Shown here piece by piece: positions 2,426-41,589 of a DNA stretch of 64,000 nucleotides. The notes beneath the pieces are model-generated. The model had not been told where the DNA came from, made no database searches, and saw only the letters and a list, made by a program, of their open reading frames with translations. Each line of letters opens with the position of its first letter. The first letter of the stretch is position 1. Origin of the DNA: an uncultured Gammaproteobacteria bacterium (lineage in GTDB: Bacteria > Patescibacteriota > Microgenomatia > CAYXHB01 > CAZYTL01); NCBI GenBank assembly GCA_964650355.1, contig CAZYTL010000005.1, positions 23,209 to 87,208 on the forward strand. Direction: 5' to 3'. The position numbers were made by a program, and so were the translations under genes.

Positions 2426-2475
2426 AAATTCACTCTACCACGAATCACACATCACGAAGCACGTAACGATAGGCA
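2426..2475 (-). promoter_or_regulatory. Family promoter. -10-like TGGTAGAGT 6 nt upstream of ATG, with degenerate ACGTAAC sites further upstream.
   Basis: The plus strand reads cat|aaattcactctaccacgaatcacacatcacgaagcacgtaac. On the coding strand this is GTTACGTGCTTCGTGATGTGTGATTCGTGGTAGAGTGAATTT ATG. Confidence 0.5.
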
Positions 2476-2637
2476 AGAAACATGTAGCAAAAAACAAAAA
2501 ACTGAGAAACTAAGAGACAACGTAGTTACCTAATTACAACAAATTACTACTTTCTACTACCTACTTCCAAAATTCTTACTCCTGAATTCGAAATTCTATC
2601 TTCTATATTCTCATTTCTGATTCCTGTTTACCAATTA

Positions 2638-2717
2638 CCTGCCCGCAATGCTACGCCAGCCCGCAGTAGATACAGCGTTTCTGGCGGGTATAACGTTGCA
2701 GGCGGGCTGATTACCGA
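2638..2717. repeat. GC-rich palindromic element (cctgcccgcaatgctacgc...ttgcaggcgggctg) just 3' of a family gene. Probably a terminator or REP-like element.
   Basis: Imperfect inverted repeat gcccgc/gcgggc arms. A second copy lies at 32795-32850. Confidence 0.5.
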
Positions 2718-4679
2718 CTACTGACCACCGACCACCTTTCCCCAATCAATCGTATTCACCTTCCCATCCCCGTTCTGATCCAACAACCCATCAAACCAAC
2801 CCCCTAACACCTGCCTCAACTTTTTCCCTAATCCCATCTTTATTCCATAGATATCTACCTCCGTCAAACTATTCCACTCATTGGTATTATTTATATGCCC
2901 CAAATACCTCACGTATCTCCCTTGTATATCCGAAAAATCATATACCTCCTGCTCGAGAGTCATTCCGCTGCTTTCCCCACTCCACACCGTCTCCCAATTT
3001 ACCCTGTCACTCGAAACCTGTAAGTCAAACTTATTCATTCTACTGTCTCCTTGATATACCCCGATCCTCACCAGTCCCACCGTCCTCACTACACCTAAAT
3101 CATATTCAATCCATTGTCCGTCTCCGCTCGCTGACCAACGGGTACTCAAATCATTATCCACCGTATTTCCTGATAGGTTAGTCCCATCGTCTCCACTTGT
3201 CCTCACTCTACTAACGTCAGGCGTTATCTCCTCATACCTGGGATCAATCGTTGGTGTGGGCCGCGGAGTTACACTTGGTGCGCTGTTCATATATTCATCT
3301 GCTCCCACATCAGATCTGGCTATTCCGTCTCCGTTACCATCTTGAGGTCGTGGCTGATCATCTATATCTCTGACCGCATACCCACTACTACTGCCCTGAT
3401 CTATCGCCGGAGAGTTTACCGTTAAATGAAAATCCAGTTGTGACGGATCTTTAAACTTGACCGCATCTCTTTGGCCGTAAACTAAATTATTATAAGCATT
3501 CACATAATTACTTACCACTCCTGTCTCTAAAGTCTCGGCTATCAAATTATCATAAACCGCCCCCTGTTTTGGAGTTGAACTGACTCTGATTCCGCTCCGA
3601 GAACTTTTAACAATCGTATTATTATAAATCATTCCTCCATCTCCCAAGTCCCAGTTAATCCCCTGCGCACTTGTAGCCATCCCCGAATTGTAAAAAATAT
3701 TATTGTAAATCACATATCCTCCGATTCCTTGAATATACATCCCCGAACCTCGAGAATTATAGATTTGGTTATTATAATAATTACCAGTAGTCCCCCTATT
3801 TATGATCATTCCAAATCTCCCGTTCCCAGCTGATGGATCTGAAGACAACCCTGCATCCCTAACTATATTATGATGAATATCAACTTCACTTACCGCACTC
3901 CCCACCTGAATCCCGTCCCACCCCGTCCGATCCACCACATTATTATAAACCTTCACCCCTCTCAATACCGGATCATCAACATATTCTGTTCCGCTATTAC
4001 AACTCAAACTCCTCCCTTGGTAGAAAGAACTGCCGATATAAAACCCCTCTGTTCCCACATCATGAACATAATTATCATGAAAAATCGAATTAATCTGCGT
4101 AAAATTACTCCGATTCACCACATCATCTAAATCACCCACCTTTATCCCGTCTCCGTCGTAATCATACGCATGCCAATCGGAAGTCGATCCATCAGAACAA
4201 ACCGCCTCTGTCTTCGCTGATACGCCAATTATCGGCACCCCTGATACCTCAATGTGATCCACCTCAAAGTCACTTGTCTTGTTGGGCATCGTCATCCCGT
4301 TCGCCGTCGAGTGAATTATCTTTATCCCGTATTTGACTTGAGTATCTCCGGTCCCTGTAATCTTGATAAACTTACTGTTTTGCACCAAAATCCCTTCTGA
4401 CGTCGTCGAGTTGATCACCACTTGCCCTCCGAAATTAATAAACGTAATTGGCGTACTCGTGTCCCTCAAAAAATTTCTTAACTTCAAACTATCTCTATTC
4501 CCGGCTAAAATGCAAACTGTATCTCCTGGTTGCACACCAGCATAATTACCCCTCCCGTCTGCAATCGATACGTTCACGGGAATCGTATAATCACAGCTCA
4601 CCGCTCCGTAAACTGTCTCTGGATTCATCAACCCCCCTGCTATCACCATTATGAATAACCCGACCAGATTTCTCCTCAT
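2718..4679 (-). CDS. Secreted beta-helix family protein with C-terminal F5/8 type C (discoidin) domain and dockerin-like tail.
   Basis: 653 aa. The first 230 or so residues are nearly identical to the 275..2425 protein, including at nucleotide level. The discoidin block is SGNTVDNDLSTRWSASGDGQWIEYDLG. The tail is LGGWFDGLLDQNGDGKVNTIDWGKVVGGQ. Confidence 0.8.
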   Translation of the reverse strand: MRRNLVGLFIMVIAGGLMNPETVYGAVSCDYTIPVNVSIADGRGNYAGVQPGDTVCILAGNRDSLKLRNFLRDTSTPITFINFGGQVVINSTTSEGILVQNSKFIKITGTGDTQVKYGIKIIHSTANGMTMPNKTSDFEVDHIEVSGVPIIGVSAKTEAVCSDGSTSDWHAYDYDGDGIKVGDLDDVVNRSNFTQINSIFHDNYVHDVGTEGFYIGSSFYQGRSLSCNSGTEYVDDPVLRGVKVYNNVVDRTGWDGIQVGSAVSEVDIHHNIVRDAGLSSDPSAGNGRFGMIINRGTTGNYYNNQIYNSRGSGMYIQGIGGYVIYNNIFYNSGMATSAQGINWDLGDGGMIYNNTIVKSSRSGIRVSSTPKQGAVYDNLIAETLETGVVSNYVNAYNNLVYGQRDAVKFKDPSQLDFHLTVNSPAIDQGSSSGYAVRDIDDQPRPQDGNGDGIARSDVGADEYMNSAPSVTPRPTPTIDPRYEEITPDVSRVRTSGDDGTNLSGNTVDNDLSTRWSASGDGQWIEYDLGVVRTVGLVRIGVYQGDSRMNKFDLQVSSDRVNWETVWSGESSGMTLEQEVYDFSDIQGRYVRYLGHINNTNEWNSLTEVDIYGIKMGLGKKLRQVLGGWFDGLLDQNGDGKVNTIDWGKVVGGQ

Positions 4680-4754
4680 ACATTCACTCTACCATAGCCC
4701 AAAGATCGCGTAGCCCGCATCGCATCACGCGTAAATCTACCATCTCTTTTTTCT

Positions 4755-6650
4755 TTACAACAGACCACTTATCACCTTCCCCCAATCCCAACTATTTACC
4801 ACCCCATCTTCGCTCCCGTCTCCTGCACTACCTAACCAATTACTCAACAAAAACCTCCACCCCGGTTCCTGGTATACCAATCTAATCGCATCTGCCACCA
4901 CATCTTCTCCTCCGCTTACCATATCACTAACCGTCACCGACCCTTGATTAATAAAATAATATTTTCCCAACAGATTCCATTGCTCGTTACTTACCTGCTG
5001 GTTCACTCTTACTTCTTCTGCTCCTCCGGTAAAATTTATCGTATACGGTACATCAGTTGGCCGTATCATCGATGGCCACCAACTCGCATATACCTCATAC
5101 TCTCCCGGCCGGTTAACCGTAAACGACCACGTAGCTGTATCTCCGCCTCTAATCAAATGGTTAAACATATGCGAACTACCGTAGTGCAACCCCTGGGGAT
5201 CAACGTATTCCTGCCACATATCCTGCACAAACGCAGTGCTAAACCCCTCATCGACATTATCAATAATCATCTCATTTGGATTTACAGTTGGTGTTGCCAT
5301 CGGACTCATACTTACATACTCATACGCTCCCATATCTGGTTTGGAATCCCGTGAATTACCTTCAAAGTCAAGGCTGACTCCTACCGCTGTTCCCTCATCT
5401 CTTACCAAACTATCAGACACTAACCGAAAATCATTCACTGCCCTGTCCACAAACCCCGGGTCCACATGCAAAGTATTTGGCCCATCCAAAGCATGGCTGG
5501 TCCCTGGTCCTCCGTACCAATCATTATAATCCATCACATTACTGCCCGATAAACTCCGATTATTAATCTGCTCATCAGTATTAAAGGCTGAAATATTGTC
5601 AATGATCCGGTTATTTTTCAGATTCTTAAAATCTGCAAATAATATTCCTGTCCTATTACCCACCACCGTGTTGTGGTAAATTTCATTTCCGTACCCCACC
5701 ACCGTGTCTGCCGGCCAACCATCCAGTTTGCCCGCGTCCAACCTGATTCCGGAATACGGATTCCCGTAAATCAAATTATTGGTTACTTTAGTCAACCTCC
5801 TCACATAAATCGCCGCCTGTGTATAATTACGACCGCATTCATAAATTCTATTACCGTCAATCACATTGGCGTCCGGCGACCCGATTCCAAAATGTCCACA
5901 ATCAGAAATCGTATTTCCCTGTATCAGGGTACCCACGGCATTCAGCTTAGTATCCACCCCTTCCCATACATTATAAATCGTATTACCAATCACTTTATTA
6001 TTCCGACAATGATGTGTATAACTAGCCCCGCCTTTGGACACATAAATCCCTTCACCTAATGAAATATCATAAACTTCATTATTTTCTAACAAATTATCAT
6101 CGCACGACGGATAATCAGGATTGTCATAGTGAATACCAATCTTAATTCCAATTGTCGTCCCGGAATAATACGTCGGATCTATATAAATATGATGAATCTT
6201 CATCCCCCGCACAATATTGTGGTCCGCCCATATATTCATCGCTTCTGCAATGAAATTCTTCAGCTCTAATCCTTCAATAATCCAGTAGTCATGCTTGATT
6301 CCCAAAAACTTTTGCACCACATAATTGCCGTCAATCACCACCCCGCTCGACTCTGGTTTAACCGTGATCGGTGCCTGAGCCGTTCCACTAGCCGCAGTTT
6401 CAGCGTACATATACAAAGGACTACTCCCCCCTCCGCCCACATTATAAGTACCACCTCGAATCAACAACCGGTCCCCGGCTCTTAGTTTGTTAATCCCGTA
6501 GCTGATCGATTTCCATGGGCTCTGACTGCTTCCGCTGTTGCCGTCATTTCCTGTGGTCGCCACATAATAATCCGCTGCCAGCGCTGTTTTGGACATTACC
6601 AGATTCATCCCCACGCCTATCAATAACCAAACCGCGATTCTTCTTAACAT
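4755..6650 (-). CDS. Secreted right-handed beta-helix protein (DYYVATTGNDGNSG...PW type N-terminus), with a beta-sandwich carbohydrate-binding-like module and dockerin-like tail.
   Basis: 631 aa with a signal peptide. The N-terminus AADYYVATTGNDGNSGSSQSPWKSI is typical of pectin-lyase-fold proteins. The C-terminal module is DTATWSF..PGEYEVYASWW..VPYTINF..VVADAIRLV. The tail is WRFLLSNWLGSAGDGSEDGVVNSWDWGKVISGLL. Confidence 0.75.
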   Translation of the reverse strand: MLRRIAVWLLIGVGMNLVMSKTALAADYYVATTGNDGNSGSSQSPWKSISYGINKLRAGDRLLIRGGTYNVGGGGSSPLYMYAETAASGTAQAPITVKPESSGVVIDGNYVVQKFLGIKHDYWIIEGLELKNFIAEAMNIWADHNIVRGMKIHHIYIDPTYYSGTTIGIKIGIHYDNPDYPSCDDNLLENNEVYDISLGEGIYVSKGGASYTHHCRNNKVIGNTIYNVWEGVDTKLNAVGTLIQGNTISDCGHFGIGSPDANVIDGNRIYECGRNYTQAAIYVRRLTKVTNNLIYGNPYSGIRLDAGKLDGWPADTVVGYGNEIYHNTVVGNRTGILFADFKNLKNNRIIDNISAFNTDEQINNRSLSGSNVMDYNDWYGGPGTSHALDGPNTLHVDPGFVDRAVNDFRLVSDSLVRDEGTAVGVSLDFEGNSRDSKPDMGAYEYVSMSPMATPTVNPNEMIIDNVDEGFSTAFVQDMWQEYVDPQGLHYGSSHMFNHLIRGGDTATWSFTVNRPGEYEVYASWWPSMIRPTDVPYTINFTGGAEEVRVNQQVSNEQWNLLGKYYFINQGSVTVSDMVSGGEDVVADAIRLVYQEPGWRFLLSNWLGSAGDGSEDGVVNSWDWGKVISGLL

Positions 6651-6740
6651 ATCTTCACTCTACCACAGCTCAGAGGTCACGTAACCCGCATCACACAACC
6701 AACAAATCAATGTCTCGTGACTTGACGTTCCGCCATACGC

Positions 6741-7333: not shown

Positions 7334-9562
7334 TTAATTATCAAAACGCCCCCCCTCCACCCAACTCACCCCATTCTGCAAACTCCCATCATTGTGATTA
7401 CCCGTCGCGTCGTGAACCACCGTTCCGCTGCCTTCATTAAACTTCCAGTAACCCACCAACCCGGCTGCACCCAGATCAACCTCTCGACTCATATCTGACT
7501 GAATCTGTTGCTGAGTCCTGGCATAATTCCACAACCTCAATTCGTCTTCCTCTCCCTGCAAACTGTAACTACTTACCGCTGAAGAAATATACATATCTTC
7601 TGTCGTGCCAATGGATCTCCCATTCAAAACACTTATATCAAAGTTCCCCACCAAATTTCCATCTAAATAAAAGCTCGCCTGCTGACTCCTGTCAGCCACC
7701 ACTGCCACCTGATGCCACTGATCATCCTTGATCCCCAACGACTTATCTGAATTCGCATATACAACCTGGCTTCCATCCCCCAAATATAATCTCAAATCAT
7801 CATCCTGGTTTGAATACCAAAACCAATACCCCGGCTGAGAAGCACTGCTCGCGCCCTTATAATCAATATTGAAATTTGAATTCTGCGTACTTGCCACCTT
7901 CACCCAAGCTTCAATCGAAAAATCCCCGCTCCCTACATCCAACTCCGGGACGTTAGCAAACCTCACTCGGTCGTCTATCCCGTCAAAATGCACCGCATAT
8001 TTAACCGGCGGCCTAATGATTAACTTCGCCCAATCCAGACTATTGATCACTCCGTCGGCTACTCCTTCAAAAATCTGGTTATTAGTCAACCAGCTAACTA
8101 ATAAACTCTTTGCCTGAGAGGCCCAAGGTATCGGCGTTACCGTCGGTGTCGGCACTATCCCTGACGCATATTCATACGCCCCGATATCATAAACTCCTTC
8201 TTGCGGACGGCTAATTCCCAAATAATCACTAGTGACAAAATCCACTGTTGTACCCGCATTAACCGCTGGCGATCCCGATTGCACGGAGTAATCACCACTG
8301 CCCGGATCAGTAAATTTTACCTCCCCCACCGTGGGGCTCGATAAGTTATTCGTCACCAAAACCCCGGCCGTAGTCTTAATATACGTCTCGCCGTTTTGGG
8401 GATTTACCACCAAATTATTTTGCACTAAATTATCGCTTCCGAAATCCTGATTGAACAAAATTCCCCATCCTCTTGGTTTCACAATCGTATTATTGGCAAC
8501 AAAAACACTATTACCATGATTTATTTTTGTACCAACATATATACCGCTCCCGTTAGCACTAGTATAAGAACTGTACCTACCCGGATTTATAATCACATTA
8601 TTAAACACATGATTCAACCCATGTCCCTGCACATAAATTCCGGCTCCAATAATGTCCGTAATAAAATTATTATAGACATCACACACACTTCCCGGATTAA
8701 TCATATAACCTCCCTCATGTGCTGTCTGCTGTTCAGTTCCTGTATTTGTTATCCGATTATGATGCGCGTCGCAATTTTCCACTGCTGATCCGATTTGAAT
8801 TCCCTTAGTGCCGATATCTTCCACCTGGTTACCGTAAACATGCACGCCCTTCAAAACCGGATCATAAATCGTGGCTGTTCCTCCGCAATTTAATTCATAA
8901 GCTCCCTCTACATAATGCGAACTTCCTAAATACATCCCCATCGAAATATTGTAAATATATATGTCATGAAAAGTAATGTTGTGTGTAGTTATTTCGGTTT
9001 ACCGCATCCTGAGCATCAATTTCTCCATCGTTATTATAGTCATACCCTCTCCAGCTGGTGGGGGACCCGTCTGGGCAGGTCGAATCCGCCTTACTTGACA
9101 CTCCGATTCCGGTTCCTCCTATTCCGGTGATTTCCAAATGATCGACTTCAAAATTGTCAGACTTATGCAATAAATTAATTCCCGTATTCGTAGATCCTGA
9201 AATCTTTATTCCGTAATTCACCCCTGCCGCCCCCGTTCCCGTAATTCTAATATGACTGCTATTGCTCACTTCTATCCCCGAAGACTGGCTGGTATTAATT
9301 ACTACTTGCCCCCTGAATTAATAAAAGTAATCGGTGTCGTGGACGATCTTTTAAAATTTATCAAATTCAACGCTCCTCGGTTTCCGGCTTCAATACACAC
9401 CGTATCTCCGGGTTTCACACTCGCATAATTACCTCTACCGTCAACCCTTGTTACCCCTGTGGAAATAGTAAAATCGCAACTCAGTGCTTCATAAACTACT
9501 TCCGGACTCATCATCCACCCGATCACGATTAATCCAACCATCCAAATCAATCTTCTCCTCAT
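7334..9562 (-). pseudogene. Disrupted member of the beta-helix family, with an internal dockerin-like module and a C-terminal LamG (concanavalin-like) domain. It is split into three ORFs by two frameshifts.
   Basis: ORF 9302..9562 carries the signal peptide and N-domain and stops at ...PITFINSGGK*. The intact paralog continues SGGQVM, so a 1-nt shift is likely. ORF 8964..9269 continues (IRITGTG...NRNNYTQHYFS*). ORF 7334..8941 resumes the helix in another frame (HDIYIYNISMGMYLGSS against paralog HDNYIHDVGAEALYIGGS), then carries SLLVSWLTNNQIFEGVADGVINSLDWAKLI plus LamG. Confidence 0.7.
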
Positions 9563-9649
9563 ATCATGACTCTACCACGATCCAAGTATCACGGAGCACA
9601 TAACACGTAGCATTCCGTTTACCCCTCATTACCATTTACAATTTACCGA

Positions 9650-32400: not shown

Positions 32401-32729
32401 AAACCCTTACTGTTAACAGACCCATAAATAAACACTGTATCCCAGCCGTTTACTGCTTCGAAAGTGATTGGGTTGCCTACACTACCTGAACGCCGGACAT
32501 TAACTGTTTCCCTATAAACCCCGGGCATGATCCTCACCCGGTCACCAGCCTGAACAGTGTTAGCTGCCTTCTGAATAGAACTAAAAGGCAGTTGTTGTGT
32601 ACCAGAGTTATTATCATTGCCTGTAGTTGACACATAATAATCCGCCGCCCATACAGGTTTAGTTATCACTCCACCTAATCCGGCTATCAGCAGCACCAGC
32701 CCCAATTTAAACCAATCTCTATGACCCAT
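29457..32729 (-). CDS. Very large secreted beta-helix protein with PT linker, internal dockerin-like module and C-terminal LamG domain.
   Basis: 1090 aa. The N-terminus is AADYYVSTTGNDNNSGTQQLPFSSI. The linker is TPTPTPPPGTPTPTPVP. The module is SWLKFLTNWFGNLIAGDLVNDEQINSLDW. The LamG block is nearly identical to that of 23103..25175. Confidence 0.75.
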   Translation of the reverse strand: MGHRDWFKLGLVLLIAGLGGVITKPVWAADYYVSTTGNDNNSGTQQLPFSSIQKAANTVQAGDRVRIMPGVYRETVNVRRSGSVGNPITFEAVNGWDTVFIYGSVNSKGFSWRSEGNGVYSADISQLPAKPELIYELQVPGSAFNGWPKYPEITFFQEIGDGIVKYPKAHEPDFTVETYWKYHENWATADGGNSVWNDNQARSGCPSSPASDLLACMSPKMTANSSLYNLTDQNTGGDGLDLRKYADLVGAVAYMMDTRSAFYIFRRQISSFDKSSGKIGWSDRADFDYLSGIPGIGAFTKYYLEGNPAFLDREMEWYINQNRLYIKTRTQVSPANLNIEIATRGIGLDFSEQSNLVFKGLDIMFVNNLLNNEGDIQNPEGALVGFHYSQQGEHVKFDHIKIAHSGKGITLRRPKVKDGLLSKDTQIVNSEIYDIEGNALVTYPYSLEGMTTSGFPMMQIVNNQIHHIGFKPVNRDYGLYFSNAYKLIIKDNYIHDVAHKCIAVTESLGEYILVKDNYLERCGLNHSEGSGFGIYSKDVPYTKVLVMGNVIRNNRGWSYASANAFWRTTSTNGPNYNGVGFFQGFSGSGLNQDRTTGITIYRNIFINNGYIGTSGKAKVYNNTIMGMGVTRNGILAGGKSSTFDNFTIRNNIIDDNYFGIVANPANMNNPKVDYNLYQRDSSIGVPPIPNSANPAGHLLLDSGLYPKEDYIYAKVCDANDRGESICYQTPWEVHGVENQGQKLFVDATNLDTSPIQSIKAKLSLASGSKAIDSGMEPSEVKTLMANMAQVLGITIVDQAKSGNAYDIGALEYGGAVPLTPTPTPPPGTPTPTPVPIPSWLKFLTNWFGNLIAGDLVNDEQINSLDWTTKVSREGGSSFTNYALRFDGVDGYVEVPHSTDYKPVNQITIEGWIKADSFSTNNNLTSTAFNQMRIWMMGNNSIGQGFSCYLNYVNTGNQRVSWYTGVETGRWYHLACVYDGQYQRLYVDGVKVGEITVGSDTINQDSNPLMIGRMSTEYTDGEIDEVRIWDVARSEAEIEGNMNREVDVNTSELVGYWRLNEGNETLAHDATGNHNDGQLTNGVEWVADRPF

Positions 32730-32794
32730 GTCTTCACTCTACCACGGGTCAAGCATCACGAGCACGTAACAATAACTTCTTTAGACTCCTGATT

Positions 32795-34358: not shown

Positions 34359-34418
34359 ATTCTCACTCTACCATGGATCAAGCATCACGTAGCACTAACA
34401 CGTAACAAGTCCGATAGC

Positions 34419-36536
34419 CTACTGACCATTGACCCTCACAGTCCAGTCCCAGCTATTCACTTTCCCATCCCCATTTCCGTCTCCTGTTACTCCAAACCAA
34501 CTACTCAGCAAATACTCCCACCCAGGTCCCTGATAAACTAATCGCACCGCATCCGCCACCACATCCTCTCCTGAACTGGCCATATCACTTACTACCACCG
34601 ATCCTTGATTCATAAAATAATGTCTCCCCAATAGATTCCATTGCCCGTCAGTTACCTGTTGATTCATCCTCAACTCGTCTGTCCCTCCGGCAAAATTGAT
34701 CGTGTACGGCACATCAGCAGGCCGCTTCGCCAATGGCCACCAACTCGCATACACATCATACATTCCCGGTTTACTTACACTAAATGACCAGGTAGCTGTA
34801 TCTCCGTCTCCTATCAAATGATTAAACAGATGCGATCCTCCATAGTGCAACCCTTGGGGATCAACGTATTCCTGCCAAGCATCCGGCCCGGATGTGGTTC
34901 GGAATCCCGCGTCCGCGTTATCCACAATCACCACCTCTATATCAGGTGTAGGAGTTGGCGTCGGGGATAACGTCGGCGTCGGCGAAGCTGAACCCGGGGT
35001 CGGAGTGGGAATCGTCCCTCCGTACACTCCATCCAGAGTTTTCCATAATCCCCCACTGCTTTGCCATGTAACCGAAATCCCTCTCTCCGCCATAATTCTG
35101 TCTTCCATAGGCCAGGGCCACAACGGCTGAGTCGTTAATACTCCGTCTTCGTAACGATATATTACATCCGCCCCCACATCTCCTCCGTTTTCTCCTTTGC
35201 CAGCCAATTCCGTCCTTGAGGCCATTAAATAAGCCCCGTATCCGTATTTGCCCACCGGCCAATTAACCGTTAACGAACTTTCATTACTCCCGCTACTGGT
35301 ATTGAAATAAGGATGCGTCATCACCGGTGTGAATCGATTTTGAGAGTGTGTCAACAAACCGGAAACCCCGCTTTCTTTATAGAAAGCGTACCCGGAATCC
35401 AATCCGCCGAAATAAGCATCCCTCACTTCCAAGGCTCCGGAGTTTCCTTCGGCCAGCACCACACCTCTGGCAGCAGCGGCATTGCTGATCCACGTAAAAT
35501 TCCTTACCTGGTTATTACTACTTTTATTCGAAGACACGCCCCTGGGTGCTGATTCTGCGTTCGTGGCGTTAATCGCCACAATATTTTCCATCCGACAACC
35601 ACTACACGACGTAAAGTAATAAGAATTTCCCTTGCCTTCCTTAATTACCGACCCCAAAACTTTCTGGTTTTGTCCCGGAATAATAATTCCGTGCACCGGT
35701 GCGCTATAAGCATTACCCGAGCTGTCTTTTCCGTGGCATGGCAAAGCCTCCGCACTGCCATTAAACCCGATCGCATTTTCAATCACCGTATTATAACCTC
35801 CGTATACTTCAATATTTTGACACCATGCATACTTATCAGGATTGCTGAATTTCTCCCACAGATTAAAAAATCTCCGCACAGTCACATCATACGTATCCCA
35901 ATCAACCAGCAAACCATGAATCCCTTCCCCGTAAGCTGCTCCGTCTTCAATTAAAATATCATGCGTATAAATCAATTGATTATTTGTGTCTCTACCTCCT
36001 CCTTCAATTTTAAACACCGGATTCCACAACCCCTTCCCGTCTCTGGCAGACACCCTTCGTAAACGAACATCATGCGACCCTGATCCCGCCACCCCGCTCA
36101 CCCCCTTGATCGTTACCGGTGAACATTGCCCCCCCACAATATTGGGATTTGAACATTTTCTAAAATAAATCCCTTCAACATCAATATAGCTTGACCGCTC
36201 TATCCACAAAGTCAAACGTTGATTCTCACCGTCTACTACAACCTGGCCGTCATTAATTGCTCTAATTACAATCCGTGCATCAACCCTGCCTTGTTTATTT
36301 ACCACCTTCATTGCCTGTCGATACGTCCCGTTATAAATATTTAATCTATCTCCGAGACCCAATTCTCCTATCGCGTGGGCAAAAGTCGCCCACGGACTCT
36401 GACTGCTACCACTGTTACTATCACTCCCGTTCGTAGCTACATAGTAATCCACCGCCCACACCGGTTTAGTTACCACATTCAAATTCATCCCCACTCCGAT
36501 CAATAATCCAACCACCGTAACCATTCTTATCTTCAT
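34419..36536 (-). CDS. Secreted beta-helix protein with beta-sandwich carbohydrate-binding-like module and dockerin-like tail.
   Basis: 705 aa. The N-terminus is AVDYYVATNGSDSNSGSSQSPWATF. The CBD block is DTATWSFSVSKPGMYDVYASWW. The tail is WEYLLSSWFGVTGDGNGDGKVNSWDWTVRVNGQ. Confidence 0.75.
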   Translation of the reverse strand: MKIRMVTVVGLLIGVGMNLNVVTKPVWAVDYYVATNGSDSNSGSSQSPWATFAHAIGELGLGDRLNIYNGTYRQAMKVVNKQGRVDARIVIRAINDGQVVVDGENQRLTLWIERSSYIDVEGIYFRKCSNPNIVGGQCSPVTIKGVSGVAGSGSHDVRLRRVSARDGKGLWNPVFKIEGGGRDTNNQLIYTHDILIEDGAAYGEGIHGLLVDWDTYDVTVRRFFNLWEKFSNPDKYAWCQNIEVYGGYNTVIENAIGFNGSAEALPCHGKDSSGNAYSAPVHGIIIPGQNQKVLGSVIKEGKGNSYYFTSCSGCRMENIVAINATNAESAPRGVSSNKSSNNQVRNFTWISNAAAARGVVLAEGNSGALEVRDAYFGGLDSGYAFYKESGVSGLLTHSQNRFTPVMTHPYFNTSSGSNESSLTVNWPVGKYGYGAYLMASRTELAGKGENGGDVGADVIYRYEDGVLTTQPLWPWPMEDRIMAERGISVTWQSSGGLWKTLDGVYGGTIPTPTPGSASPTPTLSPTPTPTPDIEVVIVDNADAGFRTTSGPDAWQEYVDPQGLHYGGSHLFNHLIGDGDTATWSFSVSKPGMYDVYASWWPLAKRPADVPYTINFAGGTDELRMNQQVTDGQWNLLGRHYFMNQGSVVVSDMASSGEDVVADAVRLVYQGPGWEYLLSSWFGVTGDGNGDGKVNSWDWTVRVNGQ

Positions 36537-36589
36537 ATATTCACTCTATCATGCAAGATTTCATTCCGTATACCTACTCCGTAAATCCT

Positions 36590-37325
36590 CTACCTCCTCG
36601 CCCACCCCACCCCATTGATCAACTGACCGTCGATATGATTACTCGTCGCGTCATGTGCCACCATTCCGCTCCCCTCATTAAACTTCCAATAACCTACCAA
36701 TCCCGGAGAACTCACGTCCACCTCCTTGTTCATATTCCCCTCGATCTCCGCCTCACTTCTGGCCACATCCCAGATTCTCACCTCATCTATCTCCCCGCTC
36801 ATATACTCTGCGCTCAACCTCCCAATCAATAATGGATTGCTATCCTGGTTTATCGTATCACTCCCGACACTGACCTCTTCCACCTTTACTCCGTCTACAT
36901 ATAGCCTCTGATACTGTCCGTCATACATACACGCCATGTGATACCACGTATTATTACTCACACTTGTGTCCCAACTCACCCGACGATTGCCTGCATTAAC
37001 GTAGTTAAAATAACAATTGAAACTGCTTTCATTTACCCACAGTCTCATCTGATTAAAGGCTGTACTCATCAAATTACTATTAGCGCTAAAATTATCAGCC
37101 TTCACCCATCCCTCTATCGTAATTCTATTACCGGGCTTGTATGCGCTACTACTGGGCACTTCCACATAACCATCCACCCCGTCAAAACTTAAACTGTAAT
37201 TCGTATTCATCCCCACTTTCGTTGCCCAATCCAAACTATTAACCTTTCCATCCCCAACCAAATCCAGTCAGGCTCATCCCCAGCCCTATCAATAACCAAA
37301 CCAGCAAGACTAATCTTCTCCGCAT
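36590..37325 (-). pseudogene. Minimal or remnant family member. The family promoter and signal peptide are joined, across a +1 frameshift, directly to a dockerin-like module plus LamG domain.
   Basis: From the ATG at 37325 the reading is MRRRLVLLVWLLIGLGMSL..., stopping after 28 codons. Skipping 1 nt gives LDLVGDGKVNSLDWATKVGMNTNYSLSFDG... open to 36590. The ORF track starts this frame at a TTG (37261). The TGATAGAGTGGAAGT-ATG promoter box is present at 37326-37340. It looks like a deletion derivative of a 23103-like gene. Confidence 0.55.
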
Positions 37326-37381
37326 ACTTCCACTCTATCATAGCCCAACGTAACCCATACGTAACAAAAACAAAATGCTAA

Positions 37382-39976
37382 TTACTGACCAACAACTACC
37401 TCTGTCCAGTCCCAACTATTCACCTTCCCGTCTCCATTTATATCTCCTAAACTTGTCAACCAGTTCATCAACAAATACTTCAAATCTCTCATCCGATATA
37501 TTAGCCTGTCTTTAATCACCATCTCCCCAAAAGCCGTGGTATCATCCGCCGGTTTTTTCACTTTCACCGGAAACCATAATAAATAGTTGTCCCTGCTTCC
37601 TCCGTCGTCATCGTCATTGATACCCAAATCAAACCCCATTATTTGATTCACTGATACATTACTCTGCCCTAAATTGGGATCCCAAGGTATGGCTACTTCT
37701 ATCACGTAGCCATCGCTACTGATGGCCACCGCATGCTCCACCCCGGTTGCTTCGCTGATTGCCCCATGCTCAGCTATACGGTTGAGTAAATCAACCGTAT
37801 ATTGGTGGTCGTTCGCATCATAATCAGCCTGACTATCTCTATCCCCGTCTACAAAAATCTCCACGCTGTCATCATCCCATATATTAGTCGACTCGTTACT
37901 TACCAATTGATCATCTGTCACTTTCACCCCTACATATAAATACTGCTCATCCCATGCCATCTGCCAACTCCCGTTCACGTCACTTGCCGGCTCACTCGCC
38001 TCCGCATAGCCAAACTCCCCCTCGTTCACTGGTATCCCTTGCCAGTCATCCAAATTCCCATCTATCATCAACGGCGCAAACACCCGCACTCCTTCCACCG
38101 GTAACCACGGCACTATCGTCGGCGTCGGACTGGCACTACTACTAACTGTTAACTGTCTCCAATTATAACTCAGAGTAGGATACCCTGGATAACTAAGAGT
38201 AAACACGTCTGATCCGTAAGCAAACTGCGCATAAGGACTATCCAAAATCGGATAACTCAAGTCAGCTTTAGTTAACGCCTGTCCGTTAATTTCCCGCCCT
38301 TTTAAAATATCACTGTCATATCGCAGTGACAAACTGGCTCCGTCTTTTGCTTGATAATTAATTTGCGGATAGGTTTTACTAAAACTCACGCTGCGTGATC
38401 GGATATTCTGCTTAAAAGCATCAAAAGACGCATAATCGTCAACATGGGCAATTTCCCCGACTCCACCTGATTTTCCATTTGCCCTTACTAACCAATAACC
38501 ATTCTTTGAATCCCAAACCATTTTTCCACTCTCTCCCCAGGCTCGGTATGCGATATAAGCTTCACCCTGCTGACCAAACCACCACCCGCTATAAGAAGAA
38601 GGTACATCCAATGTCGCATACTTAGGAATGTGCACCTGGGTAAACTCATACGTCTTCCCGTAAGGATTCCATACCTGCATCATCACATTCTTATAAAAAA
38701 GCATCCTCCGCTTCCCTCCGAACTCTATAGTAAAATCTCCCTCTCCGCTACCCGAATTTGCTTGGTTTGGGTCGCTGAAATCACCTGCATCCCCCGGTTG
38801 GATCTGAGTCAACACCGTCCTCTTCCCCCCTGCCTCTTCTGAAGTATAAATGCTATTCGTCTGGCCGTTGTTGGGCCAACCACTTGTATAGGCTTGACTG
38901 CCCCCCATGCCTGCTGCCTGGTTTTTAAGCACAAAATAATTCAACGGGTCTAGCCTCTTGTTGTCTATAAAGATTGCCGTGCCATAATCCCTGATATCTG
39001 AAAAAATGTCTGCCATTCTCCGCCATGAAAAATTTCCCTCAGCCGCCTTGCGGTGATAAATCTCTCTAATGATATCAGGAGGTTGATAACCTGACACCAC
39101 AATCCCCGGAGCTTTCCAGCTTAAAAAACCAGGCACGGGAATCTGCTCGGCAAACAACAACCACTTCCCGGTCAGAGACCAATTATCGTCCTCTACTGCC
39201 CCTTTATAGTCTCTACTTTCCGGCCCCACGTAAAGATTATGCGGCAACAAATTCAACGCGTTATTCAACAAAATATAATCAAGCGCAAACTGAGCCTTCT
39301 TCCGAATCTGCGCATCATTAGAATACGTCAAAGCCGTCAATCCCAAACAGGTGAGATCCGTGTAACTAGCGGAGTTGAATTCGAATTCTCCACTGGTCAT
39401 CATCCTTTCATAAGCCCGGTTAAAACGCATCTTTGCCACATCAATTCTAGTCTGATTCCCCAAAGCCTCCCCTGATAACATCACCGTCGCCGCCCACGTT
39501 ACCAAATGATTACTCATGGGTTCATCTCTGTTATCACCCCAAGTATCGTTCATTGCCCTTCTGAATACCTGATTCTTCAAGTCCGTACTAATACCAATAT
39601 CCGGATATTTCCTCAACCCCAAAACCACACTCACAGTCCAATGGTGATCAGCATTGCTATTGTTTAAACTCAGTGTGGTCTTGATATCTTTTTCCAAATT
39701 AGCCACTGTGTCATCAGAGTACGCCCATCCCCGCTTAATCCGCTCCATTCTGGCCAAAATCACTCCGCCGTTTTTCCGAATATCTCCGTCAATCGTTCGA
39801 ATATTCCTGTCCCAATTTCTAATCAAATATTCCGCGTGCTGATTATAGATCGTTTGATAACCACTCTCTACGATCGCAGCTTCTACAGGCAAAGAAAACC
39901 AGTAGACAAACACTATTGCCATTACTAAGCACACCCCCGTCTTAAATCCCCCGCTAATTAGATTACTTTTTGTCAC
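37382..39976 (-). CDS. Secreted large protein (unknown, possibly polysaccharide-lyase-like N-region) with CBM9-like module and dockerin-like tail. The ORF-track start is a GTG.
   Basis: 864 aa. The CBM9-like block MIDGNLDDWQGIPVNEGEFGYAEASEPASDVNG is about 85% identical to the domains in 275 and 14604. The tail is LLMNWLTSLGDINGDGKVNSWDWTEVVVGQ. There is no TAGAGT box upstream. Confidence 0.7.
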   Translation of the reverse strand: MTKSNLISGGFKTGVCLVMAIVFVYWFSLPVEAAIVESGYQTIYNQHAEYLIRNWDRNIRTIDGDIRKNGGVILARMERIKRGWAYSDDTVANLEKDIKTTLSLNNSNADHHWTVSVVLGLRKYPDIGISTDLKNQVFRRAMNDTWGDNRDEPMSNHLVTWAATVMLSGEALGNQTRIDVAKMRFNRAYERMMTSGEFEFNSASYTDLTCLGLTALTYSNDAQIRKKAQFALDYILLNNALNLLPHNLYVGPESRDYKGAVEDDNWSLTGKWLLFAEQIPVPGFLSWKAPGIVVSGYQPPDIIREIYHRKAAEGNFSWRRMADIFSDIRDYGTAIFIDNKRLDPLNYFVLKNQAAGMGGSQAYTSGWPNNGQTNSIYTSEEAGGKRTVLTQIQPGDAGDFSDPNQANSGSGEGDFTIEFGGKRRMLFYKNVMMQVWNPYGKTYEFTQVHIPKYATLDVPSSYSGWWFGQQGEAYIAYRAWGESGKMVWDSKNGYWLVRANGKSGGVGEIAHVDDYASFDAFKQNIRSRSVSFSKTYPQINYQAKDGASLSLRYDSDILKGREINGQALTKADLSYPILDSPYAQFAYGSDVFTLSYPGYPTLSYNWRQLTVSSSASPTPTIVPWLPVEGVRVFAPLMIDGNLDDWQGIPVNEGEFGYAEASEPASDVNGSWQMAWDEQYLYVGVKVTDDQLVSNESTNIWDDDSVEIFVDGDRDSQADYDANDHQYTVDLLNRIAEHGAISEATGVEHAVAISSDGYVIEVAIPWDPNLGQSNVSVNQIMGFDLGINDDDDGGSRDNYLLWFPVKVKKPADDTTAFGEMVIKDRLIYRMRDLKYLLMNWLTSLGDINGDGKVNSWDWTEVVVGQ

Positions 39977-40009
39977 TATTTTTAATCTAGCACACCCTTA
40001 CAGTTACCA

Positions 40010-41458
40010 CTACTGTTTTACCACTCTTACCCAATCCCAACAATTCACCTTCCCGTCTCCATTCTGATCTCCGATGGCGCTAAACCAATTGACCAACCAC
40101 GACTTCAAATTAGTCAGGTCTAAAGAAATTTTTTCAATCCGGATTTTGTCAAGTTTGGTGTTCATTTCCCGTCCTTGAAAGCGGAGAGTGTAGACCGGCC
40201 CGTTTGTGAGAGTAAAGATTCGGGGATCAGTTTTAGGCGAATCAAAAGTACCGCTGCCCCGGTAGCTGACCTGATTCCAAACCCAAGAAGTGGGAGGTTG
40301 AGTATCAATGGTTTGGTAGAGGATATCCCAGATGTCAGCAGTAGTAGGAGAGGTTTGGTTGATGGTAACGTAGAAGGAGTTATCGTTACCGGCAGTAGGC
40401 CAGACTCTGCCTGAGACTAAGTAGTCACCAGATTGGGCAACTCTGAATTGGAAGGCGGCGTTTCCATTATCTGCTTGGGAAGAATAGATATATTGACCTC
40501 CGGAAGCCGTGGAGTCAGAGTTGATAGTCATGGAAGATAGTTGCATAGACTCGGCCTCCGATTCATAGGCAGTTTGGATCAGAGCCGGAGTAGGTGTCGG
40601 GCCGGTCGTTGGGGAAGGCGTAGGAGTAGATGTGGGACCTCCCGGACAGGGAGGTCCTCCTTGATCAGGATTCACTTCTGCACAACTGGTACCTCTCCGA
40701 TACTCATCGTGATAGATAATCTCTGTATCACTATAAATGTCTTTGTTTCTATAAATCCCCATCTTCAAATAAGGCCCAGTATTATAATCGTAATCGTAGC
40801 CTACTGGCCCACCGTAATCTAAAACAGGATCCGGATTGCCATCCATCCAAACCCTCACATAATGGTTTCCTGATAGTCGGTAATCAAAACGAGTATTAAA
40901 AATAAAATCATGCCATACTCCCTGTGTTGCTTTTCCAATCCATTTATCCTGATTAGATCCTTCTGTAGATCTGATGCCAATATAAAAATCGCCCCCATAA
41001 ATGTACTGCAAGCTTAAAATCGGGCTATCTCCTCCGGTAGCCGCATGCCATTGGGCTATTATATTAAATCTGTAAGAACCATTTGGCTGATACCTAGGGT
41101 CAATATATACTGAAAACCCCTGCCAAACGTCTGTTGAATAAGGGATTTTGTCTTGATCATTAGCTCCATTTAACATAATTTCGGAGCGTTCATTTCCTCC
41201 CATGGGGTTTGGTGTGGGTATGTTTCCATCTCGCACTATGTTTCGCACCGCATATTTGCCGCTTCTTACCGGACTGGTTACCACCTGCGTCGAATCGGTA
41301 CAACAATGGCCACCATCTCGCCACCCGCTTAAATCCCCACTCTCAAAATCCAACACCTTGTGTTGAATATATTGAGCTCTTGCTGGGAACACAGCCACAA
41401 ATCCCATTACCCAGCATGCAACCACCAATCCAGCAATTCGCCACCATTTCCTGTCCAT
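40010..41458 (-). CDS. Secreted concanavalin-like putative polysaccharide lyase (PF14099-like jelly roll) with CBM6/35-like module and dockerin-like tail.
   Basis: 482 aa. The lyase block is ERSEIML...QWHAATGGDSPILSLQY. The CBM block is AYESEAESMQLSSMTINSDSTASGGQYIY..FQFRVAQSGDYLVSG..DNSFYVTI. The tail is LKSWLVNWFSAIGDQNGDGKVNCWDWVRVVKQ. Confidence 0.7.
   Translation of the reverse strand: MDRKWWRIAGLVVACWVMGFVAVFPARAQYIQHKVLDFESGDLSGWRDGGHCCTDSTQVVTSPVRSGKYAVRNIVRDGNIPTPNPMGGNERSEIMLNGANDQDKIPYSTDVWQGFSVYIDPRYQPNGSYRFNIIAQWHAATGGDSPILSLQYIYGGDFYIGIRSTEGSNQDKWIGKATQGVWHDFIFNTRFDYRLSGNHYVRVWMDGNPDPVLDYGGPVGYDYDYNTGPYLKMGIYRNKDIYSDTEIIYHDEYRRGTSCAEVNPDQGGPPCPGGPTSTPTPSPTTGPTPTPALIQTAYESEAESMQLSSMTINSDSTASGGQYIYSSQADNGNAAFQFRVAQSGDYLVSGRVWPTAGNDNSFYVTINQTSPTTADIWDILYQTIDTQPPTSWVWNQVSYRGSGTFDSPKTDPRIFTLTNGPVYTLRFQGREMNTKLDKIRIEKISLDLTNLKSWLVNWFSAIGDQNGDGKVNCWDWVRVVKQ
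40150..40640. repeat. Left arm of a roughly 480 bp inverted duplication. It encodes the CBM6/35-like module of 40010 and is G-rich on the plus strand, against the local skew.
   Basis: The reverse complement of 40270-40320 is cctctaccaaaccattgatactcaacctcccacttcttgggtttggaatcag. The matching 43420-43470 reads ctctatcaaaccattgacacccaacctcccacttcttgggtttgggatcag. Confidence 0.65.
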
Positions 41459-41589
41459 ACCTCCACTCTACCGCAACCTAACCTCAACTATCAACCTTTT
41501 CCGCCTCATGATATTCTGTAAATAAGTACTCATCTACCCATTTTTAAAAACTACCAATTCTCTCCTTAATTATTCTTATATGTAAAATC

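What the first reader, a model, noticed from the sequence alone, without database searches (positions are those of the whole stretch)
2426..41520. Stereotyped leaderless-type promoter shared by about 17 paralogs: TGGTAGAGT 6 nt before the ATG, plus paired ATCACGTARC sites
Immediately upstream of almost every minus-strand family gene, the coding strand reads ...GTGGTAGAGTGAnnnn-ATG (17 promoter regions, listed under could_be_checked_by). TGnTAnAnT is an extended -10. With only 6 nt to the ATG, the transcript would start at or next to the A of the start codon, giving leaderless mRNAs. There are no SD sequences anywhere among the native genes.

Further upstream, at about -20 to -45, most copies carry one or two copies of ATCACGTARC. 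This includes a perfect GATCACGTGATC palindrome at 25218. It looks like an operator for a common regulator of the whole array.
Basis: partly seen in the sequence, partly recalled or inferred. Interest (0 to 1): 0.7.

Follow-up and report, generated by a model that had tools for sequence, protein, structure and literature searches.

The report
Leaderless-type promoter cassette on enzyme genes
Seventeen secreted sugar-degrading enzyme genes of an uncultured, small-genome (CPR/Microgenomates-like) bacterium each carry the same promoter placed so that transcription should begin at the start codon, a known way of expressing genes without a ribosome-binding site, plus an upstream 7-base element that may be a shared control site.

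Summary
TG[G/A]TAGAGT-N6-ATG occurs 16 times (0.01 expected), plus one CGGTAGAGT variant. All 17 are on the minus strand, each at the first possible start codon of a long ORF or a recent pseudogene.

The genes are not one paralog family. They have at least eight unrelated N-terminal catalytic types. Similarity between promoters falls to background upstream of -50, so plain co-duplication is refuted. A related metagenomic organism (orthologs 82-85% identical) has the same core in all four of its distinct promoters.

The geometry is an extended -10, a 6-nt discriminator and a T(-1)A(+1)T(+2) start triplet, with no SD. This fits the known bacterial leaderless promoter class (GeneMarkS-2 group C). 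No TSS data exist.

The "operator" is only partly supported. The box is a heptad, GYTACGT(GAY), fixed at -35..-29 in about half the promoters. Extra copies lie 7 or 14 nt upstream, in register with the -10 and the ATG.

The pairing reflects a 7-nt periodicity found in all intergenic DNA here. The box could be a regulator site, an unusual -35, or a repeat relic. No regulator was found.

Verdict: a new member of a known kind, of moderate interest.

The parts
2423..2440 (-). Core promoter TGGTAGAGT-gaattt-ATG of the 716-aa beta-helix/CBM9 protein (275-2425)
2451..2467 (-). Heptads GTTACGT GCTTCGT (GAT...) at -42 and -35
4677..4694 (-). Core promoter of the 653-aa beta-helix/F5-8C protein (2718-4679)
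4705..4714 (-). Box GCTACGCGAT at -35
6648..6665 (-). Core promoter of the 631-aa DUF1565 beta-helix/Golvesin_C protein (4755-6650)
6676..6685 (-). Box GTTACGTGAC at -35
9560..9577 (-). Core promoter heading a frame-shifted family-A pseudogene (fragments 9302-9562, 8964-9269, 7334-8941)
9588..9611 (-). Boxes GCTACGT (-49) and GCTCCGTGAT (-35)
11741..11758 (-). Core promoter of the 697-aa family-A protein (9650-11743). Its ortholog promoter in L002 is 31/35 identical over -35..-1.
11769..11792 (-). Boxes GCTACGTGAT (-49) and GTTATGTGAT (-35)
16620..16637 (-). Box-less core promoter TGATAGAGT-N6-ATG (14604-16622), with a 70-nt intergenic region
18229..18246 (-). Core promoter of the 512-aa F5/8-type-C protein (16693-18231)
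18257..18273 (-). Tandem heptads GTTACGT GTTACGT (GAC) at -42 and -35
20116..20133 (-). Core promoter TGATAGAGT of the PL14/Golvesin_C gene (18442-20118). The upstream boxes are degenerate. It differs from its ortholog by a 7-nt indel.
23047..23064 (-). Box-less core promoter (20206-23049), with a 53-nt intergenic region. The upstream segment is shared with the promoter at 36534.
25173..25190 (-). Core promoter of the 690-aa beta-helix/LamG protein (23103-25175)
25195..25219 (-). GCTACGTGAT plus the perfect palindrome GATCACGTGATC (25195-25206). Together they read CGTGA-N6-TCACG. Both are out of the heptad register.
27566..27583 (-). Box-less core promoter (25331-27568), with a 47-nt intergenic region
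29314..29331 (-). Core promoter of the GH26 mannanase/Golvesin_C gene (27616-29316)
29335..29358 (-). Boxes GCTACGTGAT (-42) and GTTACGTGAT (-28), 14 nt apart
32727..32744 (-). Core promoter of the 1090-aa beta-helix/LamG protein (29457-32729)
32754..32770 (-). GTTACGTGCT-CGTGAT boxes
34356..34373 (-). Core promoter of the 502-aa protein (32850-34358)
34384..34406 (-). Boxes GTTACGTGTT and GCTACGTGAT (-35)
36534..36551 (-). Box-less core promoter (34419-36536), with a 53-nt intergenic region
37323..37365 (-). Core promoter TGATAGAGT plus two GTTACGT heptads, heading a pseudogene (a 28-codon ORF, then the LamG remnant at 36590-37261)
39974..39992 (-). Possible 18th member: TGCTAGATT-N7-GTG before the 864-aa CBM9 protein (37382-39976)
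   Evidence: read from the sequence; weaker
41456..41473 (-). Core promoter variant CGGTAGAGT-N6-ATG of the polysaccharide lyase gene (40010-41458). It has no box.
47377..47406 (+). Four heptads (GTTACAT GTTACGT GTTCCAT GTTACGT) ending 5 nt before the ATG of a GalT/HIT-like gene (47411-48322). It is the same unit in the same orientation relative to the gene, but outside the array.

Best explanation
The window comes from a CPR/Microgenomates-like bacterium. In its island of secreted polysaccharide-degrading enzymes, each gene is its own transcription unit.

Core promoter (inferred mechanism):
- Each gene is driven by an extended -10 promoter: TG at -15/-14 and TAGAGT at -12..-7.
- A 6-nt discriminator (GAAnnT) puts the A of the ATG at +1, inside a T(-1)A(+1)T(+2) start triplet.
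- RNA polymerase would therefore start at the start codon. The resulting leaderless mRNA would be translated without a Shine-Dalgarno sequence.
- Without SD-type re-initiation signals, every cistron needs its own promoter. That explains why the cassette recurs before every gene, even where only 47-53 nt separate genes.

Upstream element (inferred):
- A class-specific heptad, GYTACGT(GAY), occupies -35..-29 in the first gene of each unit.
- Further copies lie one or two heptads upstream.
- It is most likely a functional cis-element. Either it binds a shared regulator over the -35 region, or it serves as an atypical -35.
- Its multiplication and pairing come from 7-nt slippage, which shapes all intergenic DNA in this genome.

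Shown: the motifs, their geometry, their significance, their independence from gene homology, and their conservation in a relative.
Inferred: the TSS, leaderless translation, and any protein binding to the box.
For: Significance and geometry:
- 16 exact TGRTAGAGT-N6-ATG matches against 0.01 expected, plus one variant. The spacing never varies.
- 6 of the 7 deviations from TGGTAGAGT fall on the free 'n' of TGn.
- A pyrimidine sits at -1 in 16 of 17 (P=1e-5).
- PMC12641261 reports that a YRY triplet centred 7 bp downstream of the -10 co-localises with the TSS in 93% of cases for E. coli RNAP.
- PMC6028130 defines bacterial 'group C' leaderless genes by a Pribnow box 6-8 nt from the start codon.

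Start codon and SD:
- The ATG is the first start codon of each ORF. It is followed directly by an Arg/Lys-rich signal-peptide n-region.
- None of the 19 non-array genes has an SD-like tetramer within 16 nt of its start.

Not co-duplication:
- Column identity is 0.66-0.74 at -20..+9. It is 0.26-0.31 upstream of -50. The result is the same when only non-homologous gene pairs are compared.
- There are at least 8 distinct N-terminal types.

Cross-species conservation:
- All four distinct promoters in related contigs L002-L004, L090 and L091 have TG[G/A]TAGAGT-N6-ATG. Each has a GYTACGK-type heptad at -35 (ATTACGT in one of the four).
- In one ortholog pair, -35..-1 is 31/35 identical against 62% at 4-fold degenerate sites (P=5e-4).

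Box:
- 19 hits in the promoter zones against 1.8 expected, starting at -33 in 8 of 17.
- 6 of the other 10 copies are in 7-nt register (P=1e-3).
- No canonical -35 accompanies these promoters. The pilin genes in the same window do have TTGACA.
Against: - No TSS, transcript or protein data exist for this organism.
- The evidence for -10 elements before the housekeeping genes is only suggestive: TANNNT lies 4-6 nt from the ATG in 8 of 19.
- The conserved block runs into the coding region (+1..+10, ATGAGGAGAAGA). So part of the conservation is signal-peptide coding and possibly a shared cassette origin.
- The box is missing from 5-6 promoters, is out of register in 25175, and is remodelled in the PL14 ortholog pair (16/35 identical over -35..-1).
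- Its pairing is explained by the general heptad periodicity.
- No regulator gene is in the window.
- A strict box-plus-core pattern found nothing in the GTDB representative genomes and only a chance hit in the JGI contigs. Comparative support therefore rests on one related lineage.
Confidence: 0.62

Rival explanations
1. The core is a leaderless promoter, but the GYTACGT boxes have no function. They would be relics of the heptad microsatellite-like DNA that fills intergenic regions, inherited with a common ancestral promoter cassette and slowly decaying.
For: - Period-7 autocorrelation is seen in all intergenic DNA. It persists after the promoter cassettes are removed and is also present in the housekeeping half.
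- There are many period-7/8 TRF arrays with other units.
- There is an exact 7-nt indel between orthologous promoters.
- The box is absent from 5-6 active-looking promoters. It is degenerate in 20118 and divergent in the PL14 ortholog pair.
Against: - The same unit recurs at exactly -35 in 8-9 window promoters and in all 4 promoters of the relative, while the sequence around it has randomised.
- In one ortholog pair, 31/35 identity over -35..-1 compares with 62% at neutral sites.
- The same unit occurs before a GalT-like sugar-metabolism gene outside the array.
Confidence: 0.2
2. The cassette is the promoter of an alternative sigma factor dedicated to the glycan-degradation regulon. GYTACGT would be its -35 element and TAGAGT its -10. 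No separate repressor or activator would be involved.
For: - The box sits exactly at -35..-29, with a fixed 16-17 nt gap to the hexamer.
- TTGACA-type -35 elements exist elsewhere in the window, before the pilin genes, but not here.
- The -10 is unusually invariant (TAGAGTGA).
Against: - TGnTAnnnT is the signature of primary or group-2 sigma-70 recognition.
- Box-less promoters with the same -10 exist.
- No sigma gene is in the window.
- CPR genomes encode few sigma factors (general knowledge, not tested here).
Confidence: 0.12
3. The conserved -17..-1 block is a translation signal on a leadered or polycistronic mRNA, not a promoter. For example, GTGA at -8..-5 could pair with the UCAC of the 16S 3' tail, as in GGUGA-type SDs.
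For: - GTGA follows the hexamer in 14 of 17 promoters, at a distance from the ATG suitable for the 3' part of an extended SD (read from the sequences).
- No intrinsic terminators lie between the genes, so read-through is possible.
Against: - Only 4 bp of pairing is possible.
- None of the 19 other genes has GTGA or any SD-like motif there.
- The variation pattern (a free base at the n of TGn, invariant TA...T) and the pyrimidine at -1 fit RNAP recognition, not rRNA pairing.
Confidence: 0.06
4. The shared sequence is a passive by-product of co-duplication or gene conversion of 5' ends, with no selection on it.
For: - Two promoters (23049 and 36536) do share about 100 nt of upstream sequence, including the 3' end of the preceding gene.
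- Families A and B are true paralogs.
Against: - Identity drops to background beyond -50 and beyond about +45. It is the same between non-homologous genes.
- It is conserved in another species above the neutral rate.
Confidence: 0.04

Closest known systems
Bacterial leaderless-gene promoters (GeneMarkS-2 'group C'; Mycobacterium, Streptomyces, Corynebacterium, Deinococcus)
   Same: - A Pribnow-type -10 box 6-8 nt upstream of the start codon.
- No SD.
- The start codon is expected at the 5' end of the mRNA (PMC6028130).
   Different: - The host is a CPR/Microgenomates-like organism. The literature search found no report of leaderless expression in CPR.
- The hexamer and its flanks are nearly invariant (GTGGTAGAGTGAA) across a functional gene set, rather than a loose TAnnnT.
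- No TSS evidence exists.
Extended -10 (TGn) promoters of sigma-70-type holoenzymes
   Same: TG lies one base upstream of the -10 hexamer, and there is no recognisable TTGACA -35.
   Different: A different conserved element (GYTACGT) occupies the -35 position.
Regulon operators overlapping the -35 region (repressor sites or class II activator sites, e.g. CRP/FNR TGTGA-N6-TCACA)
   Same: - A short conserved motif at a fixed distance from the core promoter of functionally related genes.
- The half-site CGTGA/TGTGA resembles the CRP/FNR half-site.
- One promoter (25175) has a full CGTGA-N6-TCACG inverted repeat.
   Different: - Most copies are direct repeats at 7 or 14 nt, not inverted repeats.
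- The site is centred near -31, not -41.5.
- No cognate regulator has been identified.
Cellulosome/CAZyme regulons with dedicated promoters (e.g. sigI/RsgI-controlled genes of Clostridium thermocellum; general knowledge, not tested here)
   Same: An array of secreted glycan-degrading enzymes with dockerin-like C-terminal tails shares a stereotyped promoter.
   Different: - The motifs are unrelated.
- No sigI or anti-sigma genes were seen.
- Only a single dockerin-like loop is present, and no cohesin was found.
Short tandem repeats in promoters of contingency loci (phase-variable promoters)
   Same: Short (7-nt) repeat units lie between and upstream of the promoter elements. A unit-length indel separates related organisms.
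   Different: The units are imperfect and have only 2-4 copies. There is no evidence of within-population length variation.

Membership tests
Bacterial leaderless-mRNA promoter (GeneMarkS-2 group C type) | A -10 (Pribnow) box ending 6-8 nt upstream of the start codon | tested here: met
   TAGAGT ends exactly 6 nt before the ATG in 17 of 17. The definition comes from PMC6028130.
Bacterial leaderless-mRNA promoter (GeneMarkS-2 group C type) | No Shine-Dalgarno sequence upstream of the start | tested here: met
   No SD-like tetramer lies within 16 nt of the start of any of 19 other genes; the closest is one AGGA at -17. In the array, the only GGAGG strings abut the ATG.
Bacterial leaderless-mRNA promoter (GeneMarkS-2 group C type) | The transcription start coincides with the first base of the start codon | not testable with these tools
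   It can only be predicted. The YRY triplet T-A-T is centred 7 nt after the -10 in 15 of 17 promoters, and C-A-T in one more.
Bacterial leaderless-mRNA promoter (GeneMarkS-2 group C type) | The annotated start codon is the true translation start | tested here: met
   It is the first in-frame start after a stop. It is followed immediately by M-R/K-R-R and a hydrophobic signal peptide. Public gene calls chose internal Met codons instead.
Extended -10 promoter | A TG dinucleotide at -15/-14, one base upstream of the hexamer | tested here: met
   16 of 17 have it, and one has CG.
Extended -10 promoter | Weak or absent consensus -35 (TTGACA) | tested here: met
   The sigma-70 consensus scan reports none of these promoters in the 20 kb it covered (16001-36000). 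The -35 position holds GYTACG, a 3/6 match at best.
Operator of a shared transcription factor | A motif enriched at a fixed position relative to the core promoters of a gene set | tested here: met
   19 hits against 1.8 expected, starting at -33 in 8 of 17.
Operator of a shared transcription factor | Conservation in orthologous promoters above the neutral rate | tested here: inconclusive
   It is met in one pair (31/35 against 62% neutral). It is not met in the PL14 pair (16/35), where the region was remodelled by a heptad indel.
Operator of a shared transcription factor | Dyad or direct-repeat symmetry matching a dimeric binding protein | tested here: inconclusive
   There is one perfect palindrome. 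Otherwise the copies are direct heptads at 7 or 14 nt, which the genome-wide period-7 structure also explains.
Operator of a shared transcription factor | A cognate regulator gene, or binding evidence | tested here: not met
   No DNA-binding regulator was found among the window ORFs. The rest of the 88.6-kb contig and the genome could not be retrieved.
Phase-variable repeat promoter | A perfect tandem repeat tract long enough for slippage, with length polymorphism | tested here: not met
   There are at most 2-4 imperfect copies. The three contigs of the relative are identical to one another. Only one between-species 7-nt indel was seen.

The most novel reading that the evidence does not exclude
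The promoters are built from, and evolve by, 7-nt units. The -35 heptad, the spacer heptads, the -10 heptad (GGTAGAG) and the ATG all lie in one register, and intergenic DNA genome-wide is heptad-periodic.

This could reflect a lineage-specific mechanism in which 7-nt slippage creates and tunes leaderless promoters. A factor that reads heptad-phased G.....T/TG repeats might also be involved. Either would give this reduced-genome bacterium an evolvable or switchable repertoire of secreted glycan-degrading enzymes without classical operons or RBSs.
Probability: 0.1. Interest if true: 0.75.

Novelty: new member of a known kind. Interest (0 to 1): 0.4.

Why it matters
If TSS mapping confirms it, this would be sequence-level evidence that a CPR/Microgenomates-type bacterium expresses genes from leaderless mRNAs, one promoter per gene, without Shine-Dalgarno sites.

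Practical consequences:
- Gene callers mis-place starts in such genomes. The public calls for this contig begin at internal Met codons.
- Operon and regulon prediction in CPR MAGs would need to account for this.

It also gives a precise cis-element set (core plus -35 heptad) marking a secreted polysaccharide-degradation regulon. That set can be used to find the rest of the regulon and its regulator. Finally, it flags two unusual genome-wide properties, heptad-periodic intergenic DNA and extreme GC skew.

Tried and rejected
1. Retrieving the source contig. Exact-protein look-ups for window proteins failed or returned only a 3.9-kb Logan fragment. The remaining ~24 kb of the 88.6-kb NCBI contig could not be examined for regulators or more promoters.

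2. Collection scans. The strict pattern TACGTGA-N8-30-TGGTAGAGTGA-N4-ATG gave 0 hits in the GTDB representative genomes. It gave one chance hit in non-coding, unrelated DNA in the JGI contigs. The related JGI contigs found later are evidently not in that collection.

3. More distant homologs. The family-A protein and the GH26 have homologs at 40-59% identity: P0005, P0013, P0014, P0032 and the P0100-P0139 proteins inspected. These belong to other lineages (Chloroflexota-like EPS clusters, GC 57%, PT linkers, no NSWDW tail) and do not carry the promoter.

4. The nearest GTDB relatives by GAPDH (L006-L008, Woesebacteria/Microgenomates). They have no TGRTAGAGT-N6-ATG in the 8.5-21 kb held for each (about 39 kb in all). 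Their gene starts show only loosely -10-like hexamers.

5. Rfam. No RNA family was found in the window, so a structured leader is not indicated.

6. Intergenic folding. The long imperfect hairpins have weak z-scores, -1.1 to -2.1. They are not claimed as terminators.

7. An SD hidden in the coding region. The AGGAG inside ATGAGGAGA could in principle serve a downstream TTG start. This was rejected because it would remove the charged n-region of the signal peptide, and most members lack AGGAG there.

8. Integron-like cassette or mobile-element ends. No integrase or transposase was found, and the element is promoter-shaped.

9. PHROG and Pfam scans of the unannotated ORFs found nothing.

Full report
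**Observation**

The motif is in the sequence and is far beyond chance.
- TGGTAGAGT with <=1 mismatch occurs 35 times against 14.5 expected, almost all on the minus strand.
- The full architecture TG[G/A]TAGAGT-N6-ATG occurs 16 times against 0.01 expected.
- A 17th copy, CGGTAGAGT-N6-ATG, is at 41456-41473.
- The gap to the ATG is exactly 6 nt in all 17. The ATG is always the first start codon of the ORF.
- Two copies head recently pseudogenised genes (9562, 37325).
- A possible 18th member is TGCTAGATT-N7-GTG at 39974-39992.

The second motif is also real.
- ATCACGTARC with <=1 mismatch gives 23 hits against 5.8 expected. Sixteen of them are in the array promoters.
- The palindrome GATCACGTGATC is at 25195-25206, not 25218.

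**What the genes are**

They are not one paralog family (Pfam scans and all-against-all BLASTP).
- Family A is a beta-helix with an AVSCDF N-terminus: 2425, 4679, 11743, 16622 and the 9562 pseudogene.
- Family B is a DUF1565/pectate-lyase-like beta-helix: 6650, 25175, 27568, 32729, 36536.
- Six are singletons. Five have recognisable domains: GH26 mannanase, PL14, a Polysacc_lyase-family lyase, an N-terminal F5/8-type-C protein, and a PPC/CBM9 protein. The sixth (32850-34358) has only a weak TSP3 repeat hit.
- All have signal peptides.
- They mix C-terminal CBM9, Golvesin_C, LamG or F5/8C modules.
- 13 of 19 end in a shared ~30-aa dockerin-like tail.

The other half of the window (41.6-62.5 kb, + strand) encodes TruB, GAPDH, glycogen metabolism and dTDP-rhamnose genes.

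**Organism**

- GAPDH is 59-61% identical to Woesebacteria/Microgenomates MAGs.
- PF18895 pilin-like genes are present.
- Together these indicate a CPR/Patescibacteria bacterium of the Microgenomates group.
- The source is an 88,567-bp NCBI contig. It could not be retrieved.

**Co-duplication test**

- With the 17 promoters aligned on the ATG, mean pairwise identity is 0.26-0.31 from -120 to -51. The compositional expectation is 0.26.
- It is 0.39-0.42 at -40..-21, 0.66-0.74 at -20..+9, and 0.3-0.5 in the signal-peptide coding region.
- The values do not change when only pairs from different N-terminal families are compared.
- The element is therefore a conserved island, not a co-duplicated 60-mer.
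- One pair (23049/36536) does share a longer upstream segment, including the 3' end of the preceding gene, while the downstream genes are unrelated. This shows that cassettes are shuffled at the ATG.

**Cross-species evidence**

- A related organism was found in JGI and Logan contigs L002-L004, L090 and L091. Its orthologs are 85% and 82% identical at the amino-acid level.
- All four of its distinct promoters carry TG[G/A]TAGAGT-N6-ATG.
- For the 11743 ortholog pair, -35..-1 is 31/35 identical. Four-fold degenerate sites are 62% identical (P=5e-4). Sequence further upstream is unalignable.
- For the PL14 pair, only the core is conserved (12/17). The upstream part differs by an exact 7-nt indel.
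- Pattern scans of the GTDB representatives and the JGI contig collection found no further carriers.
- More distant homologs belong to other phyla and lack the motif.

**Mechanism of the core**

- TG is at -15/-14 and TAGAGT at -12..-7. Then come six bases (consensus GAAnnT) and the ATG.
- 6 of the 7 deviations from TGGTAGAGT are at the unconstrained base of TGn.
- The base before the ATG is a pyrimidine in 16 of 17 (P=1e-5). This gives a T-A-T or C-A-T triplet centred 7 nt after the hexamer.
- PMC12641261 reports that a Y(-1)R(+1)Y(+2) 'start' element centred 7 bp downstream of the -10 co-localises with the TSS in 93% of cases.
- PMC6028130 defines the bacterial leaderless class (group C) by a Pribnow box 6-8 nt from the start codon.
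- No SD-like tetramer lies within 16 nt of the start of any of the 19 other genes; the closest is one AGGA at -17.
- Several of those genes have -10-like hexamers at the same distance, for example truB with TGtTATACT-N6-ATG. This genome-wide evidence is only suggestive.
- The leaderless reading is therefore well supported by geometry but unproven.
- It also explains why every gene, even with a 47-53-nt intergenic gap, has its own promoter. Public gene calls for this contig chose internal Met codons instead.

**The upstream box**

- On the coding strand the unit is GYTACGT(GAY).
- The core TACGTGA (<=1 mismatch) is 10-fold enriched in the promoter zones: 19 hits against 1.8 expected.
- It starts at -33 in 8 of 17 promoters. 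The heptad GYTACGT therefore occupies -35..-29, which is the -35 position.
- Written in heptads counted back from the ATG, the box-containing promoters read [GYTACGT][GAYnnnT][GRnCnGT][GGTAGAG][TGAAnnT]ATG. Extra GYTACGT units lie at -42 or -49.
- 6 of the 10 non-proximal copies are in this 7-nt register (P=1e-3).
- All four promoters of the relative have a GYTACGK-type heptad at -35 (ATTACGT in one of them), and one has three in tandem.
- Box-less promoters are those with short intergenic regions (47-70 nt), that is, second genes of pairs, plus 41458.
- The same unit forms a four-copy array immediately before a GalT/HIT-like gene on the other strand, in the same orientation relative to that gene.

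**Why pairing is not evidence for a dimeric operator**

- Intergenic DNA throughout the window shows period-7 autocorrelation: lag 7 is 0.35-0.37 against a baseline of about 0.28, with lags 14 and 21 also raised.
- This holds after the promoter cassettes are removed. It also holds in the housekeeping half (0.32). Coding DNA shows only period 3.
- TRF finds many period-7/8 arrays with unrelated units.
- The 7- or 14-nt pairing of boxes is therefore what this genome's intergenic DNA does anyway.

**What does argue for function**

- The same unit recurs at one fixed position across non-homologous genes and in two organisms.

**What remains open**

- The box could be a regulator site over the -35. 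CGTGA/TGTGA resembles a CRP/FNR half-site, and 25175 has a full CGTGA-N6-TCACG.
- It could be an atypical -35 or a determinant for an alternative sigma factor.
- It could be a decaying relic.
- No regulator gene is present in the window.

**Comparison with known systems and verdict**

- The core is a new member of the known class of bacterial leaderless, extended -10 promoters.
- It occurs in a phylum for which full-text searches found no report of leaderless expression. The only CPR TSS data set cited in the paper read here is for Nanosynbacter.
- The shared upstream element makes this a candidate regulon signature for a secreted glycan-degradation island.
The leaderless promoter is likely. 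The 'paralogs' claim is wrong. The 'operator' is plausible but not established, and its pairing has another explanation.
- Interest is moderate (0.4).
- The most novel reading not excluded is that promoters here are generated and tuned by heptad slippage, or read by a heptad-phased factor. I put this at about 0.1.

Noticed in passing
window 1-64000; also L002, L090, L006: The GC skew is extreme: -0.3 to -0.48 in most 2-kb windows, on both sides of the switch in gene orientation at 41.5 kb. Only the island at 12-14 kb and the stretches at 30-32, 40-42 and 58-60 kb fall weaker than -0.25. The skew is therefore strand-linked, not transcription-linked. Related contigs show |skew| of 0.28-0.35.
   Followed up: partly
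all intergenic regions, e.g. 18232-18441, 25176-25330, 44700-44745, 53535-53580, 57735-57830: Intergenic DNA is heptad-periodic, with autocorrelation peaks at lags 7, 14 and 21. It holds many short period-7/8 tandem arrays with different units (GGTAATC, AATACCT, TAATAAAC, ATTTCCT). One exact 7-nt indel separates orthologous promoters. The cause is unknown.
   Followed up: partly
C-termini of the array proteins, e.g. 275-370, 9650-9745, 20206-20300 (minus strand): 13 of 19 array proteins end in the same ~30-aa tail, LLxNWLxGxGDxNGDGKVNSWDWxxVISNL. It resembles a single dockerin/TSP3 calcium-binding loop (weak Pfam hits only). It may be an anchoring or sorting tag for a CPR secretome.
   Followed up: partly
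window ~11,900-14,550: An AT-rich island (GC 0.38) with no skew splits the array. It holds four + strand ORFs (131, 130, 180 and 260 aa). None has a PHROG hit, and the two larger ones, the only two scanned against Pfam, have no Pfam hit. It looks like a foreign insertion.
   Followed up: partly
48617-50110 and 50389-52030 (minus strand): Two PF18895 (T4SS-pilin-like) paralogs have near-identical classical promoters, TTGACA-N18-(TGa)GATACT-N9-ATG. The organism therefore also uses canonical -35/-10 promoters with a 2-3-nt leader.
   Followed up: no
7334-9562 and 36590-37340 (minus strand): Two array members are pseudogenes, broken into fragments or truncated after 28 codons. Both keep intact promoter cassettes.
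   Followed up: partly
2620-2717 and 32790-32850 (minus strand); 57770-57800; 58950-58975: GC-rich hairpins (e.g. GCCCGCCTGCAACG...GCGGGC; GCTCGCATAGCGAGC+TTTTT) are flanked by inverted blocks of heptad/octad repeats after some genes. They are possible terminators. Whole-intergenic folds have weak z-scores (-1.1 to -2.1).
   Followed up: partly
275-2425 and 27616-29316: The public protein entries for this contig start at internal Met codons (699 against 716 aa; 557 against 566 aa). This cuts into the signal peptides. It is probably because gene callers find no RBS.
   Followed up: yes
44160-44208, 52964-52989, 61836-61868, 61975-62005: Period-7 tandem arrays (AAATCTT, AACTATC, CTAACAG) also lie inside annotated ORFs (truB, an alpha-amylase-like gene, an rmlD-like gene). 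I did not examine whether these ORFs are intact there.
   Followed up: no
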